From IMG/VR virus record IMGVR_UViG_3300033143_004212, positions 19,405-83,404 of that record: a stretch of 64,000 nt of DNA. One strand, 5' to 3'. The notes under the pieces were generated by a model. The model was given only the letters and a program-made list of their open reading frames with translations, was not told the origin of the DNA and did not search any database. Both the position numbers and the translations under genes were made by a program. Of this stretch, positions 47,256-64,000 are shown piece by piece (positions within the stretch are counted from its first letter, which is position 1; each line of letters opens with the position of its first letter). This DNA comes from a virus.

Positions 47256-47284
47256 ATTATATCAAATTTTTAATTATAATACAA
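47256..47284 (-). promoter_or_regulatory. sigma-A-type promoter for dnaE
   Basis: TTGTAT-17 nt-(TG-A)-TATAAT. Confidence 0.5.
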
Positions 47285-47768
47285 CCGATTTTGTTTCAAA
47301 AATACGTCTTTCTGTTTTTTTGATTTTATTTTTCATAGCAGTTGTTGCTAATTTGTCTGCGCGTTCGTTTCCTAAAATACCTGAATGACCTTTAACTTTT
47401 ACAAATTCTACTTTATCAAAAAAAGTAACTAAAGCATCTAATATTATTCATAAATCTTTATTTTTAACTTCTTCTTTTTTAGAATTTTTTCAACCATTTC
47501 TTTTTCAGTTATTTATCCATTTTTTATTATACGCATTAGCTACATAAGAAGAATCTGTATAAATAATAACTCTTGTTTCTATCATTTGCGTTCATGTAGA
47601 AATTTCTTCTAATGCTTTTATTACTGCGGTTAATTCCATTCTATTATTTGTTGTTTTTTCTGAGTATCCCATGTGACCCATATTACCGATACAATATCCT
47701 CAACCGCCTTCTCAAGTTCCATTCTGTGAACAAGCACCGTCTGTATAAATTTCTATTAAATTTGTCAT
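47274..47768 (-). CDS. rnhA: Ribonuclease HI, 164 aa, 6 TGA (47712, 47700, 47592, 47505, 47490, 47448); absent from the ORF track
   Basis: IYTDGACS, GG[W]G, TTNNRMELTA, YTDSSYV, WINN[W]KRNG[W]K...VKNKDL[W] and VKGHSG..GNERADKLA. Confidence 0.95.
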
Positions 47769-58342: not shown

Positions 58343-58957
58343 CTAACTATCTATATATTCTCATCTATATCCATAAGCAGTTTTTCGTTGACCGTTACAT
58401 ACCTTACATATATGACTAACTTTTTTTACATCTCCGAGTTGTCTTGCTGCTTCATTTACTGATTCATAAGTTTTTAATACTTTTAAAGTATTCTTATCTA
58501 ATTTAGCTACTTTTCTTTTATGACCATCAATCTTAATATTATTCCCTTTTAAGATTCTTCTTATCATTTCTTTGCAAGTATTAAAATACTCAGCAGTATT
58601 ATTAACATGTTTTAACTCTTTGTATTTTTTAATAACTTCTTTATCAGTATATGGAAAAGTTCTTGTGCCTTCTCCACCAAGCGTTGCATTATAGCCATTA
58701 TTATAAGAATCATATTCTTTAATAAATTCAATTTCCATTAATTCTAATAGACCTTCTTCATACTCTCCAATTAATTCAACTGAAAAATTTTCAATTCCAT
58801 ACTTATTTATTGCTCTATATAGAGGTCTATGCTTATTATTTTCTCTTTTTGAGTTATAAATATGCTGTTTATATCTTTCTTTAATAGTTAGATATGTTTT
58901 TCCTATATAAATCTTGCCATTCATTTTATTTATAATTTTATATATTTTACCAATCAT
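58343..58957 (-). CDS. GIY-YIG homing endonuclease with NUMOD1 tail, TGA at 58361
   Basis: KIYKI.NK.NGKIYIG, AI.KYG..NF, GYN.T.GG, and KTAYGYR[W]EY to TAG 58343. Confidence 0.85.
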
Positions 58958-59019
58958 CTTTTTTATTCTCCTTATCACCTCTATATATTATATCATTTTT
59001 CTTAGAAAGGTAAACTATT

Positions 59020-60902: not shown

Positions 60903-61877
60903 TTATTTTTTTCGTTTTTGTTTCCTTTCGGCTCTTCTTTTCTTTCTACAGTCTGAACATTTGCATCCTTTTCCATGTACTGCTATAGGTTCTACATGAA
61001 CTTTTTTGACCTTCTCTGTTGTCTTTTTTTTTAAAGGATAAGTTCTGCATGCTACGCAATCACAATTTTCATTATCTTCATCATGTCCTGTTGTTATAGC
61101 AAGTATTCCTTTTTTATCTTCTATTTCTTTAGGTTCTTCTTTAGGTTCTTCTTTAGGTTCTTCAACTTTTTTTACTTTTTCTTGTGCTTTTTTTTGTACT
61201 TCTTTAATAGCTTTCATAATTTCTGTAACAGTATCTGTTTTTTTATCGCTATTAGGAGTAGTTCCTTTATCGTCAGGAGTAGTTGATGATTGTTTACTTG
61301 CTAATACTTCATTTGCTCTATATGTTTCTAAATCATATACCATATCAATAATTCCATTCTCAAATGCTTCATCATTGTCCATATAGTATTGAAAATCTTC
61401 TTTTCTAACTCTTTCCATTATATCTTCTGGTATTCTACATTCTTTTCTAGTAATTGCTACTAATTTTTCATACATTTTTAAATACATTTCAGAAAACTCA
61501 CTCACTTGATTAGGAGAAGAATTTAAAATTCCCCATTTAGCAGAATGATATAAGAAAGTTGTATGAATATGTGCAACTCTTTTAGCTCCTCCTAGGAAGG
61601 CAAGCAAAGCCGCACTTCCCACTAAACCACTTGCTATTGTAATTACAGGCGTTTCACTATTCTTAATAATAGCATACAGAGACATTCCCGCGTGTAATGA
61701 ACCTCCTCCAGAATTAATATGTAGACTAATAGGATGTGATTTATAACTTCTTGGTCCATTATTAACCATCTCTGTATCATATCTATTAATAGCATTAATT
61801 TTTTCTATTACTTGTCTTGCTGATTTTAAATTAATTTCTCCAAATAAGTAAATATCTCTTTCAAAGTTAAATTCCAT
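60903..61877 (-). CDS. ClpP-like protease domain with a charged Cys/His C-terminal extension
   Basis: IYLFGEI, LHINSGGGS, GSAA (Ser), FLYH (His) and EA...GIID. Confidence 0.75.
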   Translation of the reverse strand: MEFNFERDIYLFGEINLKSARQVIEKINAINRYDTEMVNNGPRSYKSHPISLHINSGGGSLHAGMSLYAIIKNSETPVITIASGLVGSAALLAFLGGAKRVAHIHTTFLYHSAKWGILNSSPNQVSEFSEMYLKMYEKLVAITRKECRIPEDIMERVRKEDFQYYMDNDEAFENGIIDMVYDLETYRANEVLASKQSSTTPDDKGTTPNSDKKTDTVTEIMKAIKEVQKKAQEKVKKVEEPKEEPKEEPKEIEDKKGILAITTGHDEDNENCDCVACRTYPLKKKTTEKVKKVHVEPIAVHGKGCKCSDCRKKRRAERKQKRKK

Positions 61878-61955: not shown

Positions 61956-61984
61956 ATTATAACAAAAATAAGAAAAAAACACAA
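61956..61984 (-). promoter_or_regulatory. sigma-A-type promoter for the ClpP-like gene
   Basis: TTGTGT-17 nt-(TG-T)-TATAAT. Confidence 0.5.
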
Positions 61985-61996
61985 GGATAATAGTTG

Positions 61997-62209
61997 CTAA
62001 TCTAAGTAATCTCTTGTATTCTTCTTATGTTTCCCTTTTCTGTTGTAATCACGTTTCGATTTATGCGCACCAGTGCCTGATTTTACGACATCTAAGTGTT
62101 TACCTAATTTTCCGGCGGAGTTTTTAACTAAATCTTTCCCAGAAAATACGCCGATTGTTATTTTTTTCTCCTTTTTCTTTCTATATTTTTTACTCATTTT
62201 TTTCATCAC
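61997..62209 (-). CDS. Small very basic protein, ArfA/BrfA-like ribosome rescue factor candidate
   Basis: C-terminal HKSKRDYNRKGKHK resembles the ArfA Y-x-RKGKH tail. Probable start is ATG 62197. Confidence 0.45.
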   Translation of the reverse strand: MMKKMSKKYRKKKEKKITIGVFSGKDLVKNSAGKLGKHLDVVKSGTGAHKSKRDYNRKGKHKKNTRDYLD

Positions 62210-62230
62210 CTTTCATGGTAAATACGAGGA

Positions 62231-62728
62231 CTAATCAAATCCTCGTATTTTTTTTATTTCTTCAAAGCTGATAGGAGTATAATTAATGTTCTCCACAGAT
62301 ACATTAAAATAATACTTTTCTATCATGTTGTTATCATGGATATGTCCATGAATGTTTAGATATGGTGTCCATCCTTTCGTATAAATCGGCTCATGAGATA
62401 TTATAAAGAATTTTTTATAAAGGATAGGATATTTATATACTTCTTTAAATCCTAAATCTTTATAATAGGTTTGACTAGTTCGATCATGGTTTCCTAGTAT
62501 AAGGATTTTTCTTCCTTTAAGTCTGTCTATTATAGCTTTAGTTTGTTTTTTTGTTCCAAAAGAAACATCTCCAACTACAAAGACCGTATCTGCTTTCTTT
62601 ACTACTCTGTTCCAATTATCAATTATAGCTTCATTCATTTCATTAACATCTTTAAAAGGTCTATTACAAAACTTAATAATCCTTTCGTCATAAAAATGCA
62701 TGTCTCCGATAAAAAATATTCTTGACAT
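62231..62728 (-). CDS. Calcineurin-like metallophosphoesterase
   Basis: GDMHF, WN..V...D.V..VGD, GNHD, SHEP and HGHIH. Confidence 0.85.
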   Translation of the reverse strand: MSRIFFIGDMHFYDERIIKFCNRPFKDVNEMNEAIIDNWNRVVKKADTVFVVGDVSFGTKKQTKAIIDRLKGRKILILGNHDRTSQTYYKDLGFKEVYKYPILYKKFFIISHEPIYTKGWTPYLNIHGHIHDNNMIEKYYFNVSVENINYTPISFEEIKKIRGFD

Positions 62729-62735
62729 AATCCAC

Positions 62736-63281
62736 CTACCATTTACTATATTTATCTGCATATCCTGATGCCGCATATGAATCTGGTTTAATTTTTACAT
62801 CGCAACCCATAGCATTAAACATTCGATATACTTCTTCAATGAATTTTTTTGTTTTTCCATTGTGACCAATGTCTACATGTGGTACAAGTAAGAATGATGC
62901 ATCTTTATATACATAGTCTATTGTAATTTCTAATACTTTTTCTGCAATATTTGATTCAAAAAATTTGTAAGATAACATTTGAGTTAATTGACATTCAGTC
63001 ATAATTTTTTCTTTTAATTCAGAATAACGTCTTTTTTCTACTTGTACATATCTCCATCCCCAAGCACCTTGACCTACTCTGTGTAAATGTACAACACTTA
63101 CAAATTTAGTAGCATTAGCTTTAGGTTTAACTTGTGAATCTGTTCCAACAGAAAGAACATATTTTGCATCTGGTCTTTCTCCTATTATTCTTAATATTTC
63201 TTGTTCCATTTCTGAGAAAGTTACTATTTCTCCAATTCCATTAATAAAAATTCTTCCTTCAAAATTTGACTCCCAATTCAT
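62736..63281 (-). CDS. YkuK-family RNase H-like protein
   Basis: VGTDSQ, HRVG.G, HVDIG..GKT and IKPDSYAAS.YAD. Confidence 0.75.
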   Translation of the reverse strand: MNWESNFEGRIFINGIGEIVTFSEMEQEILRIIGERPDAKYVLSVGTDSQVKPKANATKFVSVVHLHRVGQGAWGWRYVQVEKRRYSELKEKIMTECQLTQMLSYKFFESNIAEKVLEITIDYVYKDASFLLVPHVDIGHNGKTKKFIEEVYRMFNAMGCDVKIKPDSYAASGYADKYSKW

Positions 63282-63308
63282 AAAATTCCCCTCACTCCCG
63301 TTGTTCTC

Positions 63309-63698
63309 CTATCCTCTATATAATTTTAAATTACCTGTTATCTTATCTATTTCGTTATTAAATCCTGGTCCAATACCTAGGCAAGTTGCAGTTCCTGGCT
63401 CGACTTCTGTTCTGCCATCATCCACGATTAAAGCGCACGGTAATCCTTTACTCTTGGCTAATTTATATAAAGCTATTAACTCTGCTTCACTATCAACTTG
63501 CAATACTACTTTCGTGAAGTCTTCTGCTAACCACTTATATGCCGCAGATTTTTTCTTTAATTTAAAGACTGTATCTCCTTTTGATTCTCTTATTTCATCC
63601 AAAAGTGCACCTAATGAAGCATGAGCTACTTGCGCCGCTAATTTTCCGGCTGATAAGTTTAAGTCTCTCCGTGCTATAATTACTTGTTTCACTTTCAT
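63309..63698 (-). CDS. pth2: Peptidyl-tRNA hydrolase type 2 (Pth2)
   Basis: KQVI..R.DL.LS.GKLAAQVAHA, KVVL, DDGRTEV.PGT.TCLGIGP and ID.ITG.LKL. ATG 63698 follows AGGGAG. Confidence 0.92.
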   Translation of the reverse strand: MKVKQVIIARRDLNLSAGKLAAQVAHASLGALLDEIRESKGDTVFKLKKKSAAYKWLAEDFTKVVLQVDSEAELIALYKLAKSKGLPCALIVDDGRTEVEPGTATCLGIGPGFNNEIDKITGNLKLYRG

Positions 63699-63708
63699 GA
63701 TTCCCTCC

Positions 63709-64000
63709 CTAGTTACTTGAATATTGGCTTTCACTCCATACATCCTTAAATAGTTTATCTAATTCTTCCTTTTGCGATTCATCAGTTATAATGAAAGCCG
63801 CGTCTGCAAATCCTGAGATTGCAAGGTTTATTCCTCCTGCTATATATAAGTCACCAATGTTGTATAGCTTTAAATGGGACTTTTGATGATATTTGATATT
63901 ATGAGTTAAATCTAACATATTTTCTGTATCTTCAAAACGTTCCATAACTGCTTGATAACGTTCTTCGCAATGTTTACATCCTTCAATACATTTATTAAAG
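63709..64000 (-). CDS. Partial hypothetical protein running off the window
   Basis: Frame stays open to the edge: FNKCIEGCKHCEERYQAVMERF...HLKLY...GGINL. Confidence 0.55.
   Translation of the reverse strand, partial: FNKCIEGCKHCEERYQAVMERFEDTENMLDLTHNIKYHQKSHLKLYNIGDLYIAGGINLAISGFADAAFIITDESQKEELDKLFKDVWSESQYSSN

What the first reader, a model, noticed from the sequence alone, without database searches (positions are those of the whole stretch)
61997..63698. Candidate phage translation-rescue module: ArfA/BrfA-like protein, Pth2 and RNA-processing enzymes
Seen: four adjacent co-oriented TGA-free genes encoding Pth2, a YkuK RNase H-like protein, a metallophosphoesterase and a 66-70 aa basic protein with HKSKRDYNRKGKHK. 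Established: ArfA (Y-x-RKGKH tail) and BrfA bind the empty mRNA channel and recruit RF2, the factor that reads UGA. Pth recycles peptidyl-tRNA after drop-off. Inference: this may be support machinery for a UGA code switch, rescuing ribosomes stalled at UGA, recycling tRNA, or diverting RF2. This is the best candidate here for an undescribed system. The alternative role is countering host tRNA- or mRNA-cleaving defences. The ArfA similarity rests on a short motif only.
Basis: partly seen in the sequence, partly recalled or inferred. Interest (0 to 1): 0.8.

Follow-up and report, generated by a model that had tools for sequence, protein, structure and literature searches.

The report
Candidate phage ribosome-rescue factor
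A 66-aa basic phage protein belongs to an undescribed family whose bacterial members are built like the back-up ribosome-rescue factors ArfA and BrfA (a transcription terminator inside the reading frame), so it is probably a phage-borne rescue factor next to a peptidyl-tRNA hydrolase, and it shows no specific tie to the phage's UGA-to-Trp code.

Summary
The four genes are real: Pth2, a YkuK/PF04308 RNase H-like protein, a phrog_547 metallophosphoesterase and a 66-70 aa Lys-rich protein. The phage does read TGA as Trp.

The small protein is not an ArfA or BrfA homologue by any profile test. It shares only K-x-K-x-x-Y-x-RKGKH (8 of 12 residues) with E. coli ArfA.

It does belong to a family of about 50 clusters. 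In 12 of 23 members with DNA, mostly solitary chromosomal genes, a covarying hairpin plus T-run lies inside the ORF before any stop codon. That is the non-stop-mRNA design known from arfA and brfA. The four carrier genomes tested have RF2 and tmRNA. The phage copies keep the hairpin but place the stop codon in its loop.

Best reading (about 0.5): a release-factor-dependent rescue factor, freed from tmRNA control in the phage.

A relative's 24-tRNA array, including tRNA(UCA), ends 38 nt upstream of Pth2. The suppressor tRNA, not this cluster, is the visible recoding tool.

TGA-freeness of the four genes is not significant (P = 0.15). Pth2 and the family also occur in standard-code phages and bacteria. 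The four-gene order is conserved only in close relatives.

The parts
61997..62209 (-). Small Lys-rich protein. The longest ORF is 70 aa from GTG 62209. The likely start is ATG 62197, giving 66 aa, behind an AAAGGTGA ribosome-binding site. Conserved core: I-G-x-x-S-G-x-D-L-x-x-N-S-x-G-K-x-G-K-H-x-D-x-V-x-x-G-T-G-x-H-K-S-K-x-x-Y-x-R-K-x-K-H.
   Evidence: ORF and sequence. Family of 51 representative clusters at E<=1e-3. No Pfam, PHROG, NCBIfam or PDB match. AlphaFold2 gives pLDDT 71.6 and pTM 0.25, with only short helices and no globular fold.
61968..62028 (-). Terminator-like hairpin. Its 5' arm is the AAG AAG AAU ACA AG lysine-rich codons and its 3' arm is the U-rich tract after the gene. It encloses the last 8 codons and the TAG stop codon, which sits in the loop.
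   Evidence: RNA fold -15.5 kcal/mol, z=-3.3, with 0 of 200 shuffles folding as well. Hairpins at the same place in relatives L161 (z=-3.6) and L003 (z=-2.1). The simple terminator scan, limited to loops of 3-8 nt, does not list it.
62231..62776 (-). Calcineurin-type metallophosphoesterase of the phage family phrog_547. The likely start is ATG 62728 (MSRIFFIGDMHF...), which removes the apparent 41-nt overlap with the upstream gene. The substrate is unknown.
   Evidence: PF00149 E=5.5e-10 and phrog_547 E=1.2e-55. Best solved relative is Aquifex aq_1665 (1xm7), E=1.2e-11, function unknown. The homologue in L003 starts at the corresponding Met. A 30%-identical homologue lies directly upstream of a motif-bearing small protein in unrelated phage contigs L036 and L024.
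62736..63281 (-). YkuK-family RNase H-like protein (PF04308, formerly DUF458). Its function is unknown.
   Evidence: PF04308 E=8.7e-40, covering profile positions 1-145 of 145. No PDB sequence match at E<=0.01. No tblastn match in 50,697 GenBank phage records at E<=1e-5. 82% identical in relative L003.
63309..63743 (-). Peptidyl-tRNA hydrolase Pth2. The likely start is ATG 63698 (MKVKQVII...), giving 129 aa.
   Evidence: PF01981 E=4.8e-37. NCBIfam equivalog NF003314 136.2 bits (cut-off 126). TIGR00283 125.8 bits (cut-off 82). 83% identical in relative L003, which starts at the corresponding Met.

Best explanation
The 66-aa protein is a phage-borne member of an undescribed family of small basic proteins. 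These most likely act as release-factor-dependent alternative ribosome-rescue factors. They would be functional analogues of ArfA and BrfA, not detectable homologues.

Inferred mechanism:
- The Lys/Arg-rich C-terminal part, with the conserved H-K-x-K-K-x-Y-x-R-K-x-K motif, enters the empty mRNA channel of a ribosome stalled at the 3' end of a truncated mRNA.
- The conserved N-terminal part recruits a class-I release factor, which hydrolyses the peptidyl-tRNA.

In bacteria the gene is a solitary unit whose intrinsic terminator lies inside the ORF. The mRNA therefore has no stop codon. The product is tmRNA-tagged and destroyed unless trans-translation is saturated. This is a back-up design.

The phage copy keeps the hairpin but has its stop codon inside the loop. 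It would therefore be made regardless of tmRNA. That would keep ribosomes free during infection, when truncated mRNAs are expected to be abundant.

It lies at the end of a translation-maintenance island: tRNA array in the relative, then Pth2, YkuK-like protein, phosphoesterase, then this gene. Pth2 would clear dropped-off peptidyl-tRNA.

Shown: the family, the motif, the in-ORF terminator and its covariation, the gene order, and RF2 and tmRNA in the four carrier genomes tested. Inferred: ribosome binding, release-factor recruitment, and any cooperation among the four genes.
For: 1. A real family exists: 51 representative clusters at E<=1e-3 and 8 at E<=1e-10, with a conserved core over about 45 residues.

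2. In-ORF terminator. In 12 of 23 members with DNA, a hairpin of -17 to -33 kcal/mol followed by a T-run begins 6-60 nt before the stop codon. The ORF then runs on into an unconserved, mostly hydrophobic tail. Mechanical ORFs in the same loci show such a feature in 28 of 1026 cases. Fisher p=1.6e-12.

3. The hairpin covaries. 90.5% of cells are paired, against 43-68% when the partner is slid. 7 of 14 pairs show compensatory changes. 0 of 500 shuffles reach the observed score. At protein level this appears as the conserved 'NQQL...AADF'.

4. The same design is documented for brfA (terminator within the coding region, about 62 of 71 codons translated) and for arfA (PMC6881298).

5. The non-stop members are solitary genes among unrelated housekeeping genes: MFS transporter, IlvD, TrpP, aldo-keto reductase, MarR, antiporter, GNAT. 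The four carrier genomes tested have prfB above the cut-off and tmRNA. The distribution is narrow and patchy, as for ArfA and BrfA: 6 of 35 Vallitaleaceae, and in samples of 151 genomes of their order and 300 of their class only the centre genome itself.

6. Motif: K-x-K-x-x-Y-x-RKGKH is identical in 8 of 12 positions to the ArfA tail. It is 30-fold over-represented against a codon-shuffled control.

7. The model has no globular fold, as expected for a peptide that orders only on the ribosome.

8. Context: in the 127.8-kb relative, the 24-tRNA array ends 38 nt upstream of Pth2 on the same strand. A phage-encoded ArfA (PF03889) is on record in pelagiphage HTVC027P (PMC12753301).
Against: - No homology to known rescue factors. 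The Pfam ArfA model matches none of 52 members at E<=1. Profile search of the PDB, which holds ArfA- and BrfA-ribosome structures, finds neither at E<=10. hhalign against an ArfA alignment aligns only 15 columns, probability 1.1%. The ArfA alignment was enterobacterial only.
- The window's own gene is not of the non-stop type. The strongest evidence is therefore borrowed from homologues that are 33-61% identical.
- The motif also occurs in other architectures, including 200-2300-aa marine phage proteins (DUF7230). It may be a general RNA- or ribosome-binding or other basic motif.
- Six family members with DNA show no terminator near the stop.
- No biochemical or expression data exist.
- The four-gene order is kept only in close relatives.
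Confidence: 0.5

Rival explanations
1. This is support machinery for the UGA-to-Trp switch. Either the small protein diverts or titrates RF2 so that tRNA(UCA) wins at UGA, or the rescue factor and Pth2 absorb the extra stalled ribosomes created when host mRNAs that end in UGA are read through.
For: The phage reads TGA as Trp. Four of six TGAs in its RNase H fall on conserved Trp, and DnaE, RNR and the amidase span TGAs. It encodes an Amidase_3, so the host is walled, and the candidate host bin has RF2. In the relative, the cluster adjoins the tRNA array that holds tRNA(UCA). A crude ORF-coverage measure flags 15 of 97 motif-bearing loci as code-4-like.
Against: Core-family members sit in standard-code bacteria with RF2 and tmRNA. 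They also sit in contigs with dense standard-code ORFs. Pth2 homologues are in 34 GenBank phage records of standard-code hosts such as Mycobacterium, Sinorhizobium and Xanthomonas. TGA-freeness has P=0.15. Spot checks of flagged loci (L066, L022, L153) did not clearly confirm recoding, and there is no base-rate control. Published 'code-change modules' consist of suppressor tRNA, TrpRS and RF1 (bioRxiv 10.1101/2021.08.26.457843).
Confidence: 0.12
2. The small protein binds ribosomes or nucleic acid through its basic motif, but not as a rescue factor. Examples would be a host-translation inhibitor that plugs the mRNA channel, an RNA chaperone, or a DNA-binding or packaged protein.
For: The shared motif occurs inside large marine phage proteins and in many unrelated small-protein architectures. 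There is no similarity to the RF2-binding part of ArfA. The protein is very basic and has no predicted fold.
Against: A terminator inside the ORF, conserved by covariation in the bacterial members, makes the protein accumulate only when tmRNA is saturated. That is hard to explain for an inhibitor or a DNA-binding protein. It is known so far only for back-up rescue factors.
Confidence: 0.2
3. The four genes form a counter-defence RNA-damage module against host tRNA- or mRNA-cleaving nucleases. The phosphoesterase heals 2',3'-cyclic or 3'-phosphate ends. The YkuK-like nuclease trims. Pth2 and the small protein clear the ribosomes stalled on cut mRNAs.
For: A phosphoesterase of the same PHROG family lies directly upstream of a motif-bearing small protein in a second, distant phage lineage (L036, L024; 30% identity), and again in L161. 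An ATP-dependent ligase lies 2 kb downstream. The cluster adjoins the tRNA array in the relative.
Against: No substrate is known for this phosphoesterase clade (best PDB relative is a hypothetical protein) or for PF04308. The YkuK-like gene and Pth2 accompany the small protein only in close relatives. The ligase matches DNA-ligase families. Other phage- or element-borne family members have unrelated neighbours.
Confidence: 0.15
4. The four genes are simply neighbours in an accessory-gene region and do not work together. Each acts alone.
For: The order Pth2, YkuK, MPE, small protein is seen only in the window and its close relative (59-83% identical proteins), where one extra ORF is already inserted. 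Bacterial family members are solitary. Neighbours further along are a ClpP-like protease, a guanylate kinase, a ligase and a homing endonuclease.
Against: MPE plus small protein recurs in distant lineages. Intergenic gaps are short, at 7-27 nt. The position next to a tRNA array suggests a shared theme.
Confidence: 0.35

Closest known systems
ArfA (E. coli YhdL, Pfam PF03889)
   Same: Small size (55-72 aa) and a basic tail with K-x-K-x-x-Y-x-RKGKH, 8 of 12 residues identical. No stable fold on its own. In bacterial family members the protein would be made from an mRNA that ends before any stop codon. Narrow, patchy distribution. The four carrier genomes tested have RF2 and tmRNA.
   Different: No profile-level similarity outside the motif (hhalign probability 1.1%; no PF03889 match in 52 members). 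The N-terminal region is unrelated. arfA mRNA is truncated by RNase III or a hairpin, whereas here the element is a classic hairpin plus T-run. The hosts are Bacillota, candidate phyla radiation bacteria (CPR) and phages, not beta- or gamma-proteobacteria. The phage copy retains its stop codon.
BrfA (B. subtilis YqkK)
   Same: A Gram-positive small protein with a rho-independent terminator inside the coding region. The last 9 codons are not in the mRNA (PMC6881298). The bacterial members here are built the same way, with 2-20 untranslated codons.
   Different: No sequence match to the BrfA chain in the PDB at E<=10. BrfA is confined to Bacillaceae. This family is in Vallitaleaceae, Fusibacter, other Bacillota MAGs and many viral contigs.
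Pfam DUF7230 (PF23876) and other phage proteins with the G-x-G-x-HK-x-KK-x-Y-x-RK motif
   Same: They share the roughly 20-residue motif. 10 of 52 family members give weak DUF7230 hits at the motif. The clusters are mostly viral (ESM Atlas).
   Different: The window protein itself does not match DUF7230. DUF7230 proteins have an 'NPVAKHSRN' lead-in and often long C-terminal domains, or sit inside 200-2300-aa proteins. The function of DUF7230 is unknown.
Phage-encoded ArfA (pelagiphage HTVC027P gp30) and phage Pth2 (e.g. mycobacteriophage Myrna gp36, Xanthomonas phage XacN1)
   Same: Precedent exists for phages carrying rescue-pathway genes. Pth2 is typical of large tRNA-rich phages, and here it follows a tRNA array in the relative.
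   Different: Those phages use the standard code. Their ArfA is a true PF03889 member. No described phage pairs Pth2 with a family of this kind.
'Code-change module' of TGA-recoded Jade phages (suppressor tRNA + TrpRS + RF1; Borges et al.)
   Same: A code-4 phage of a presumably standard-code host. The relative carries tRNA(UCA).
   Different: No release-factor-domain gene was found in the window's contig or in the 127.8-kb relative. The cluster studied here holds no component known to change decoding.

Membership tests
ArfA (PF03889) | Match to the family profile | tested here: not met
   No PF03889 hit for the window protein at E<=0.1, nor for any of 52 family members at E<=1. hhalign against an ArfA alignment gives probability 1.1% over 15 columns. 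The positive control, E. coli arfA, scores 89.7 bits.
ArfA (PF03889) | C-terminal KGKGSY-x-RK-x-KH tail that occupies the mRNA channel | tested here: inconclusive
   8 of 12 residues are identical (KSKRDYNRKGKH against KGKGSYMRKGKH), pairwise E=0.014. Y, R and the first K of RK are conserved in the family, but the G of RKGKH is not. Ribosome binding cannot be tested here.
ArfA (PF03889) | N-terminal region that contacts RF2 | tested here: not met
   No alignable similarity upstream of the motif.
ArfA/BrfA-type back-up rescue factors (functional class) | [quoted passage not shown] | tested here: met
   Met for bacterial family members: 12 of 23 have hairpin plus T-run before the stop, against 2.7% of control ORFs, p=1.6e-12, with covariation. 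Not met for the window's own gene, whose stop codon lies in the hairpin loop.
ArfA/BrfA-type back-up rescue factors (functional class) | Release-factor-dependent hydrolysis of peptidyl-tRNA on non-stop ribosomes | not testable with these tools
   This needs a reconstituted translation assay. RF2 and tmRNA are present in the four carrier genomes tested.
BrfA (YqkK) | Sequence similarity to BrfA | tested here: not met
   Single-sequence and profile searches of all PDB chains at E<=10 return neither a BrfA nor an ArfA chain. That a BrfA-ribosome entry is in the PDB is my recollection of the deposit that accompanied PMC6881298.
DUF7230 (PF23876) | Score above the Pfam gathering cut-off (27 bits) | tested here: not met
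   The window protein has no hit. 10 of 52 relatives match weakly, and the three of these scanned on their own score 13.8-19.7 bits and cover only profile positions 19-37 of 42.
Pth2 (PF01981 / NF003314) | Equivalog-level profile match over the full length | tested here: met
   136.2 bits against a cut-off of 126, profile positions 2-117 of 117.
YkuK / RNaseH_like (PF04308) | Full-length profile match | tested here: met
   136.4 bits, profile positions 1-145 of 145.
Calcineurin-like metallophosphoesterase (PF00149; phrog_547) | Profile match including the N-terminal metal-binding D-x-H motif region | tested here: met
   PF00149 40.4 bits (cut-off 21.5). phrog_547 189 bits. The sequence begins IFFIGDMHF.
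Genetic code 4 (TGA = Trp) | In-frame TGA at conserved Trp positions of conserved proteins | tested here: met
   The RNase H has 6 TGAs, 4 of them on Trp of the closest solved RNase H, 3h08. Pfam domains continue across TGAs in DnaE, RNR and the amidase.

The most novel reading that the evidence does not exclude
The family is a fourth, independently evolved lineage of release-factor-dependent ribosome-rescue factors, after ArfA, ArfT and BrfA. It would be spread across Bacillota, candidate phyla radiation bacteria (CPR) and many phages. Phages would have captured it and removed its tmRNA brake. In code-4 phages it would have an added role. Once tRNA(UCA) is expressed, host and early mRNAs that end in UGA are read through to their 3' ends. 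This floods the cell with non-stop ribosomes, which the factor and Pth2 then recycle. Ribosome rescue would thus become part of the cost-control of a genetic-code switch.
Probability: 0.12. Interest if true: 0.85.

Novelty: new variant of a known kind. Interest (0 to 1): 0.68.

Why it matters
RF-dependent back-up rescue factors are known from only three narrow lineages: ArfA, ArfT and BrfA. Most Gram-positive bacteria have none assigned.

A new family recognisable by the same regulatory signature would widen that picture. It would also give a simple genomic rule for finding more: a small basic ORF that runs through its own terminator.

A phage version that has lost the tmRNA brake and sits beside Pth2 and a tRNA array would show that large phages manage ribosome availability, not only tRNA supply.

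For stop-codon-recoded phages this turns a vague idea into a testable one: does a code switch raise the rescue load?

All of this rests on sequence inference. One in-vitro release assay would settle it.

Tried and rejected
- Homology to ArfA or BrfA was tried with Pfam, NCBIfam and PHROGs on the protein and on 52 relatives, with single-sequence and profile searches of the PDB, and with hhalign against an ArfA alignment. Nothing appeared beyond the short motif. I rejected 'is an ArfA'.
The prepared job was never sent. It paired one Vallitaleaceae genome's family member (alignment A6) with its own RF2 (alignment A5). There is therefore no result either way.
I obtained DNA for relatives through motif scans instead.
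- I did not run a fold search on the AlphaFold2 model. With pTM 0.25 and no globular fold, matches would be meaningless. ESM Atlas look-alikes are only unnamed viral clusters and a DUF7230 cluster.
- GenBank phages: tblastn found no match for the small protein (E<=0.01) or for the YkuK-like protein (E<=1e-5).
- Enrichment in recoded phages: a crude ORF-coverage measure flagged 15 code-4-like and 4 code-15-like loci among 97. Spot checks were unconvincing. The codon-shuffled control scan returned too few loci (3) to give a base rate. The question is left open.
- 'TGA-free genes mark early, code-neutral genes' was rejected as evidence for these four genes (P=0.15).
- Literature searches found no paper on DUF7230 and none describing this family.
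Full report
**What the window is.** The window is the last 64 kb of an 83.4-kb IMG/VR viral contig that CheckV rates 56% complete. GC content is about 30%. Genes are on the plus strand up to about 37 kb and on the minus strand after that.

**The genetic code.** Reading TGA as a sense codon joins fragments into full-length proteins.
- The RNase H at 47274-47768 has six in-frame TGAs and then matches PF00075 end to end.
- DnaE, the class II RNR and an Amidase_3 also span TGAs.
- Four of the six RNase H TGAs align with Trp of the closest solved RNase H, 3h08.

So TGA = Trp. This agrees with earlier notes of the scan on the same genome. The amidase implies a walled host. No tRNA and no release-factor-domain gene lie on the contig.

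**The observation.** Four adjacent minus-strand genes are as described.
- Pth2 is at equivalog level.
- The YkuK/PF04308 protein matches the full profile.
- The metallophosphoesterase belongs to phrog_547.
- The fourth is a 66-70 aa Lys-rich protein.

Comparison with the relative L003 moves three starts inward: Pth2 to 63698, MPE to 62728 and the small protein to 62197. This removes the apparent gene overlap.

The four genes have no TGA. They hold only 8 Trp codons, and TGA makes up 21% of Trp codons in the window, so P = 0.15.

**Is the small protein ArfA-like by sequence?** Only at the motif. E. coli ArfA, read from NC_000913, carries KGKGSYMRKGKH. BLASTP aligns 8 of 12 residues.
- Pfam ArfA matches neither the protein nor any of 52 relatives.
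- PDB searches with the sequence and with the family profile return no ArfA or BrfA chain at E<=10.
- hhalign against an ArfA alignment gives 15 aligned columns and probability 1.1%.
- AlphaFold2 with the family alignment gives pLDDT 71.6 and pTM 0.25, with short helices only.

Membership in ArfA or BrfA is therefore not met.

**The family.** Word-based search found four close relatives. A full HMMER scan of 1.84 billion representatives found 51 clusters at E<=1e-3. The conserved core is I-x-G-x-D-L-x-x-N-S-x-G-K-x-G-x-H-x-x-x-V-x-x-G-T/C-G-x-H-K-S-K-K-x-Y-x-R-K-x-K. One member is a RefSeq hypothetical protein of Fusibacter.

Ten of 52 members touch Pfam DUF7230 weakly at the motif. Many longer members end in odd hydrophobic tails.

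**The key finding.** I fetched DNA for relatives by scanning collections with the back-translated motif. This gave 93 viral stretches (against 3 for a codon-shuffled control), 38 genome stretches and 29 metagenome stretches.

In 12 of 23 core members, a hairpin of -17 to -33 kcal/mol followed by a T-run starts 6-60 nt before the stop codon. The ORF then runs on into an unconserved tail. Examples are three Vallitaleaceae chromosomes (L108, L111, L137) and several metagenome contigs. A motif-only relative from Paceibacterota (L132) shows the same design.

With the same detector, 28 of 1026 other ORFs in these loci score. Fisher p=1.6e-12.

The hairpin is conserved by covariation. 90.5% of cells are paired, against 43-68% when slid. 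7 of 14 pairs carry compensatory changes. 0 of 500 shuffles reach the score. The protein-level 'NQQL...AADF' is the two arms of the stem read as codons.

In L136, L170 and motif-only relatives L131 and L121, the stop codon lies inside the hairpin.

This is the architecture reported for brfA and, by another route, arfA. The mRNA lacks a stop codon, so the product is tmRNA-tagged and accumulates only when trans-translation fails (PMC6881298).

The non-stop members are solitary genes among unrelated housekeeping genes. The four carrier genomes tested have prfB and tmRNA. The family is patchy: 6 of 35 Vallitaleaceae, but only the centre genome itself among 151 genomes of the order and 300 of the class sampled.

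**The phage copies.** The window, its relative L003 and L161 keep a hairpin at the same place, with z of -3.3, -2.1 and -3.6. The stop codon lies in the loop, so the transcript would carry a stop. I read this as a copy released from tmRNA control. That is inference.

**Context.** The 127.8-kb relative (G468) is rated 84% complete. The same contig is binned as 'Candidatus Izimaplasma HR2', JRFF01000053. It keeps the order Pth2, an extra 108-aa ORF, YkuK, MPE, small protein, then ClpP-like, ligase and GIY-YIG.

Its array of 24 tRNAs ends 38 nt upstream of Pth2 on the same strand. The array includes a 74-nt tRNA with anticodon UCA and no tRNA-Trp(CCA). No release-factor gene is present. The Izimaplasma bin has RF2. 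Bin membership is not proof of host.

The window's contig ends 257 nt upstream of the Pth2 ORF (302 nt from its likely start), so its own array, if any, is out of view.

**Is the cluster a module?**
- YkuK and Pth2 accompany the small protein only in the close relatives.
- The phosphoesterase recurs directly upstream of a motif-bearing small protein in L161. At 30% identity it also recurs in another lineage (L036, L024), where a SpoU methylase is nearby.
- Other phage- or element-borne core members have unrelated neighbours.
- Pth2 homologues occur in 34 GenBank phage records, all large phages of standard-code hosts. In Myrna, Pth2 lies 3.4 kb from a tRNA nucleotidyltransferase.

So a shared translation theme is plausible, but a four-gene system is not shown.

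**The recoding idea.** The visible code-switch tool is the tRNA(UCA). Published code-change modules contain suppressor tRNA, TrpRS and RF1. The family and Pth2 exist in standard-code settings. A crude coverage measure hinted at many code-4-like motif loci, but spot checks and the lack of a base rate leave this open. I put the recoding link at about 0.12.

**Other carriers of the motif.** Marine phage contigs carry NPVAKHSRNKSGAGAHKS-x-KDYDRK (DUF7230) in small proteins. They also carry it inside 200-2300-aa proteins, after 'SPHP..G+LVGE'. The motif alone therefore does not define function.

**Literature.** I found no paper on DUF7230 or on this family. A phage ArfA (PF03889) is reported for pelagiphage HTVC027P.

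**Verdict.** The ArfA/BrfA-like function is supported by new, independent evidence from homologues, though homology is not. The recoding role is not supported.

Noticed in passing
L216:2650-15675 (relative G468, contig positions about 102150-115175): The 127.8-kb relative has 24 tRNA genes in one array. One is a 74-nt tRNA with anticodon UCA (ARAGORN labels it SeC; Rfam tRNA 36.6 bits). There is no tRNA-Trp(CCA). The array ends 38 nt upstream of Pth2. This is probably the UGA-to-Trp suppressor of this phage lineage.
   Followed up: partly
L107 / L003 (JRFF01000053.1 = IMGVR_UViG_2597490295_000013): The close relative of this phage is deposited as a contig of the 'Candidatus Izimaplasma bacterium HR2' genome bin. 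It reads TGA as sense, while the bin has prfB (RF2). It is either mis-binned or a code-4 phage of a standard-code host.
   Followed up: partly
L014, L013, L032, L050, L072, L080 and others (marine viral contigs): The motif NPVAKHSRNKSGAGAHKS-x-KDYDRK (Pfam DUF7230) sits inside 200-2300-aa proteins, preceded by a conserved 'SPHP..G(K/R)LVGE'. That lead-in looks like a processing site. These may be processed or head-internal proteins.
   Followed up: no
L036:5102-6194 and L024:2990-4062: In a distant phage lineage a phrog_547-type phosphoesterase (30% identical) lies directly upstream of a 43-aa protein with the same motif (…GCGLHKNKKKYNRKDKSW…). A SpoU RNA methylase and a dCMP deaminase follow in L036.
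   Followed up: partly
97 motif-bearing loci (L007-L099, L146-L174): By a crude ORF-coverage measure, 15 loci gain at least 10% coverage when TGA is read as sense, and 4 when TAG is. Spot checks of L066, L022 and L153 were not convincing, and no base rate is available.
   Followed up: partly
window 60903-61877 (-): The ClpP-family protein has a roughly 140-aa Lys/Glu/Pro-rich C-terminal extension with two C-x-C and C-x-x-C pairs. PHROGs call it either a head-maturation protease or an ATP-dependent protease. It sits among replication and nucleotide genes, not head genes.
   Followed up: no
window 58361-58978 (-) and L003:11232-12137: A GIY-YIG/NUMOD homing endonuclease lies next to the ATP-dependent ligase. 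The relative's copy is 96 aa longer through internal repeats of a roughly 40-aa unit.
   Followed up: no
L003:6534-6860: The relative has an extra 108-aa ORF with two in-frame TGAs inserted between Pth2 and the YkuK-like gene. It is absent from the window.
   Followed up: no
L132, L131, L121 (Paceibacterota/Parcubacteria), L134 (Pacearchaeota), L105 (Melainabacteria): Short motif-bearing proteins (…GGGAHKDKKKYDRKRDKK…) occur in candidate phyla radiation (CPR) bacteria and in a DPANN archaeon. In the CPR members, a terminator hairpin lies inside the ORF or over the stop codon.
   Followed up: partly
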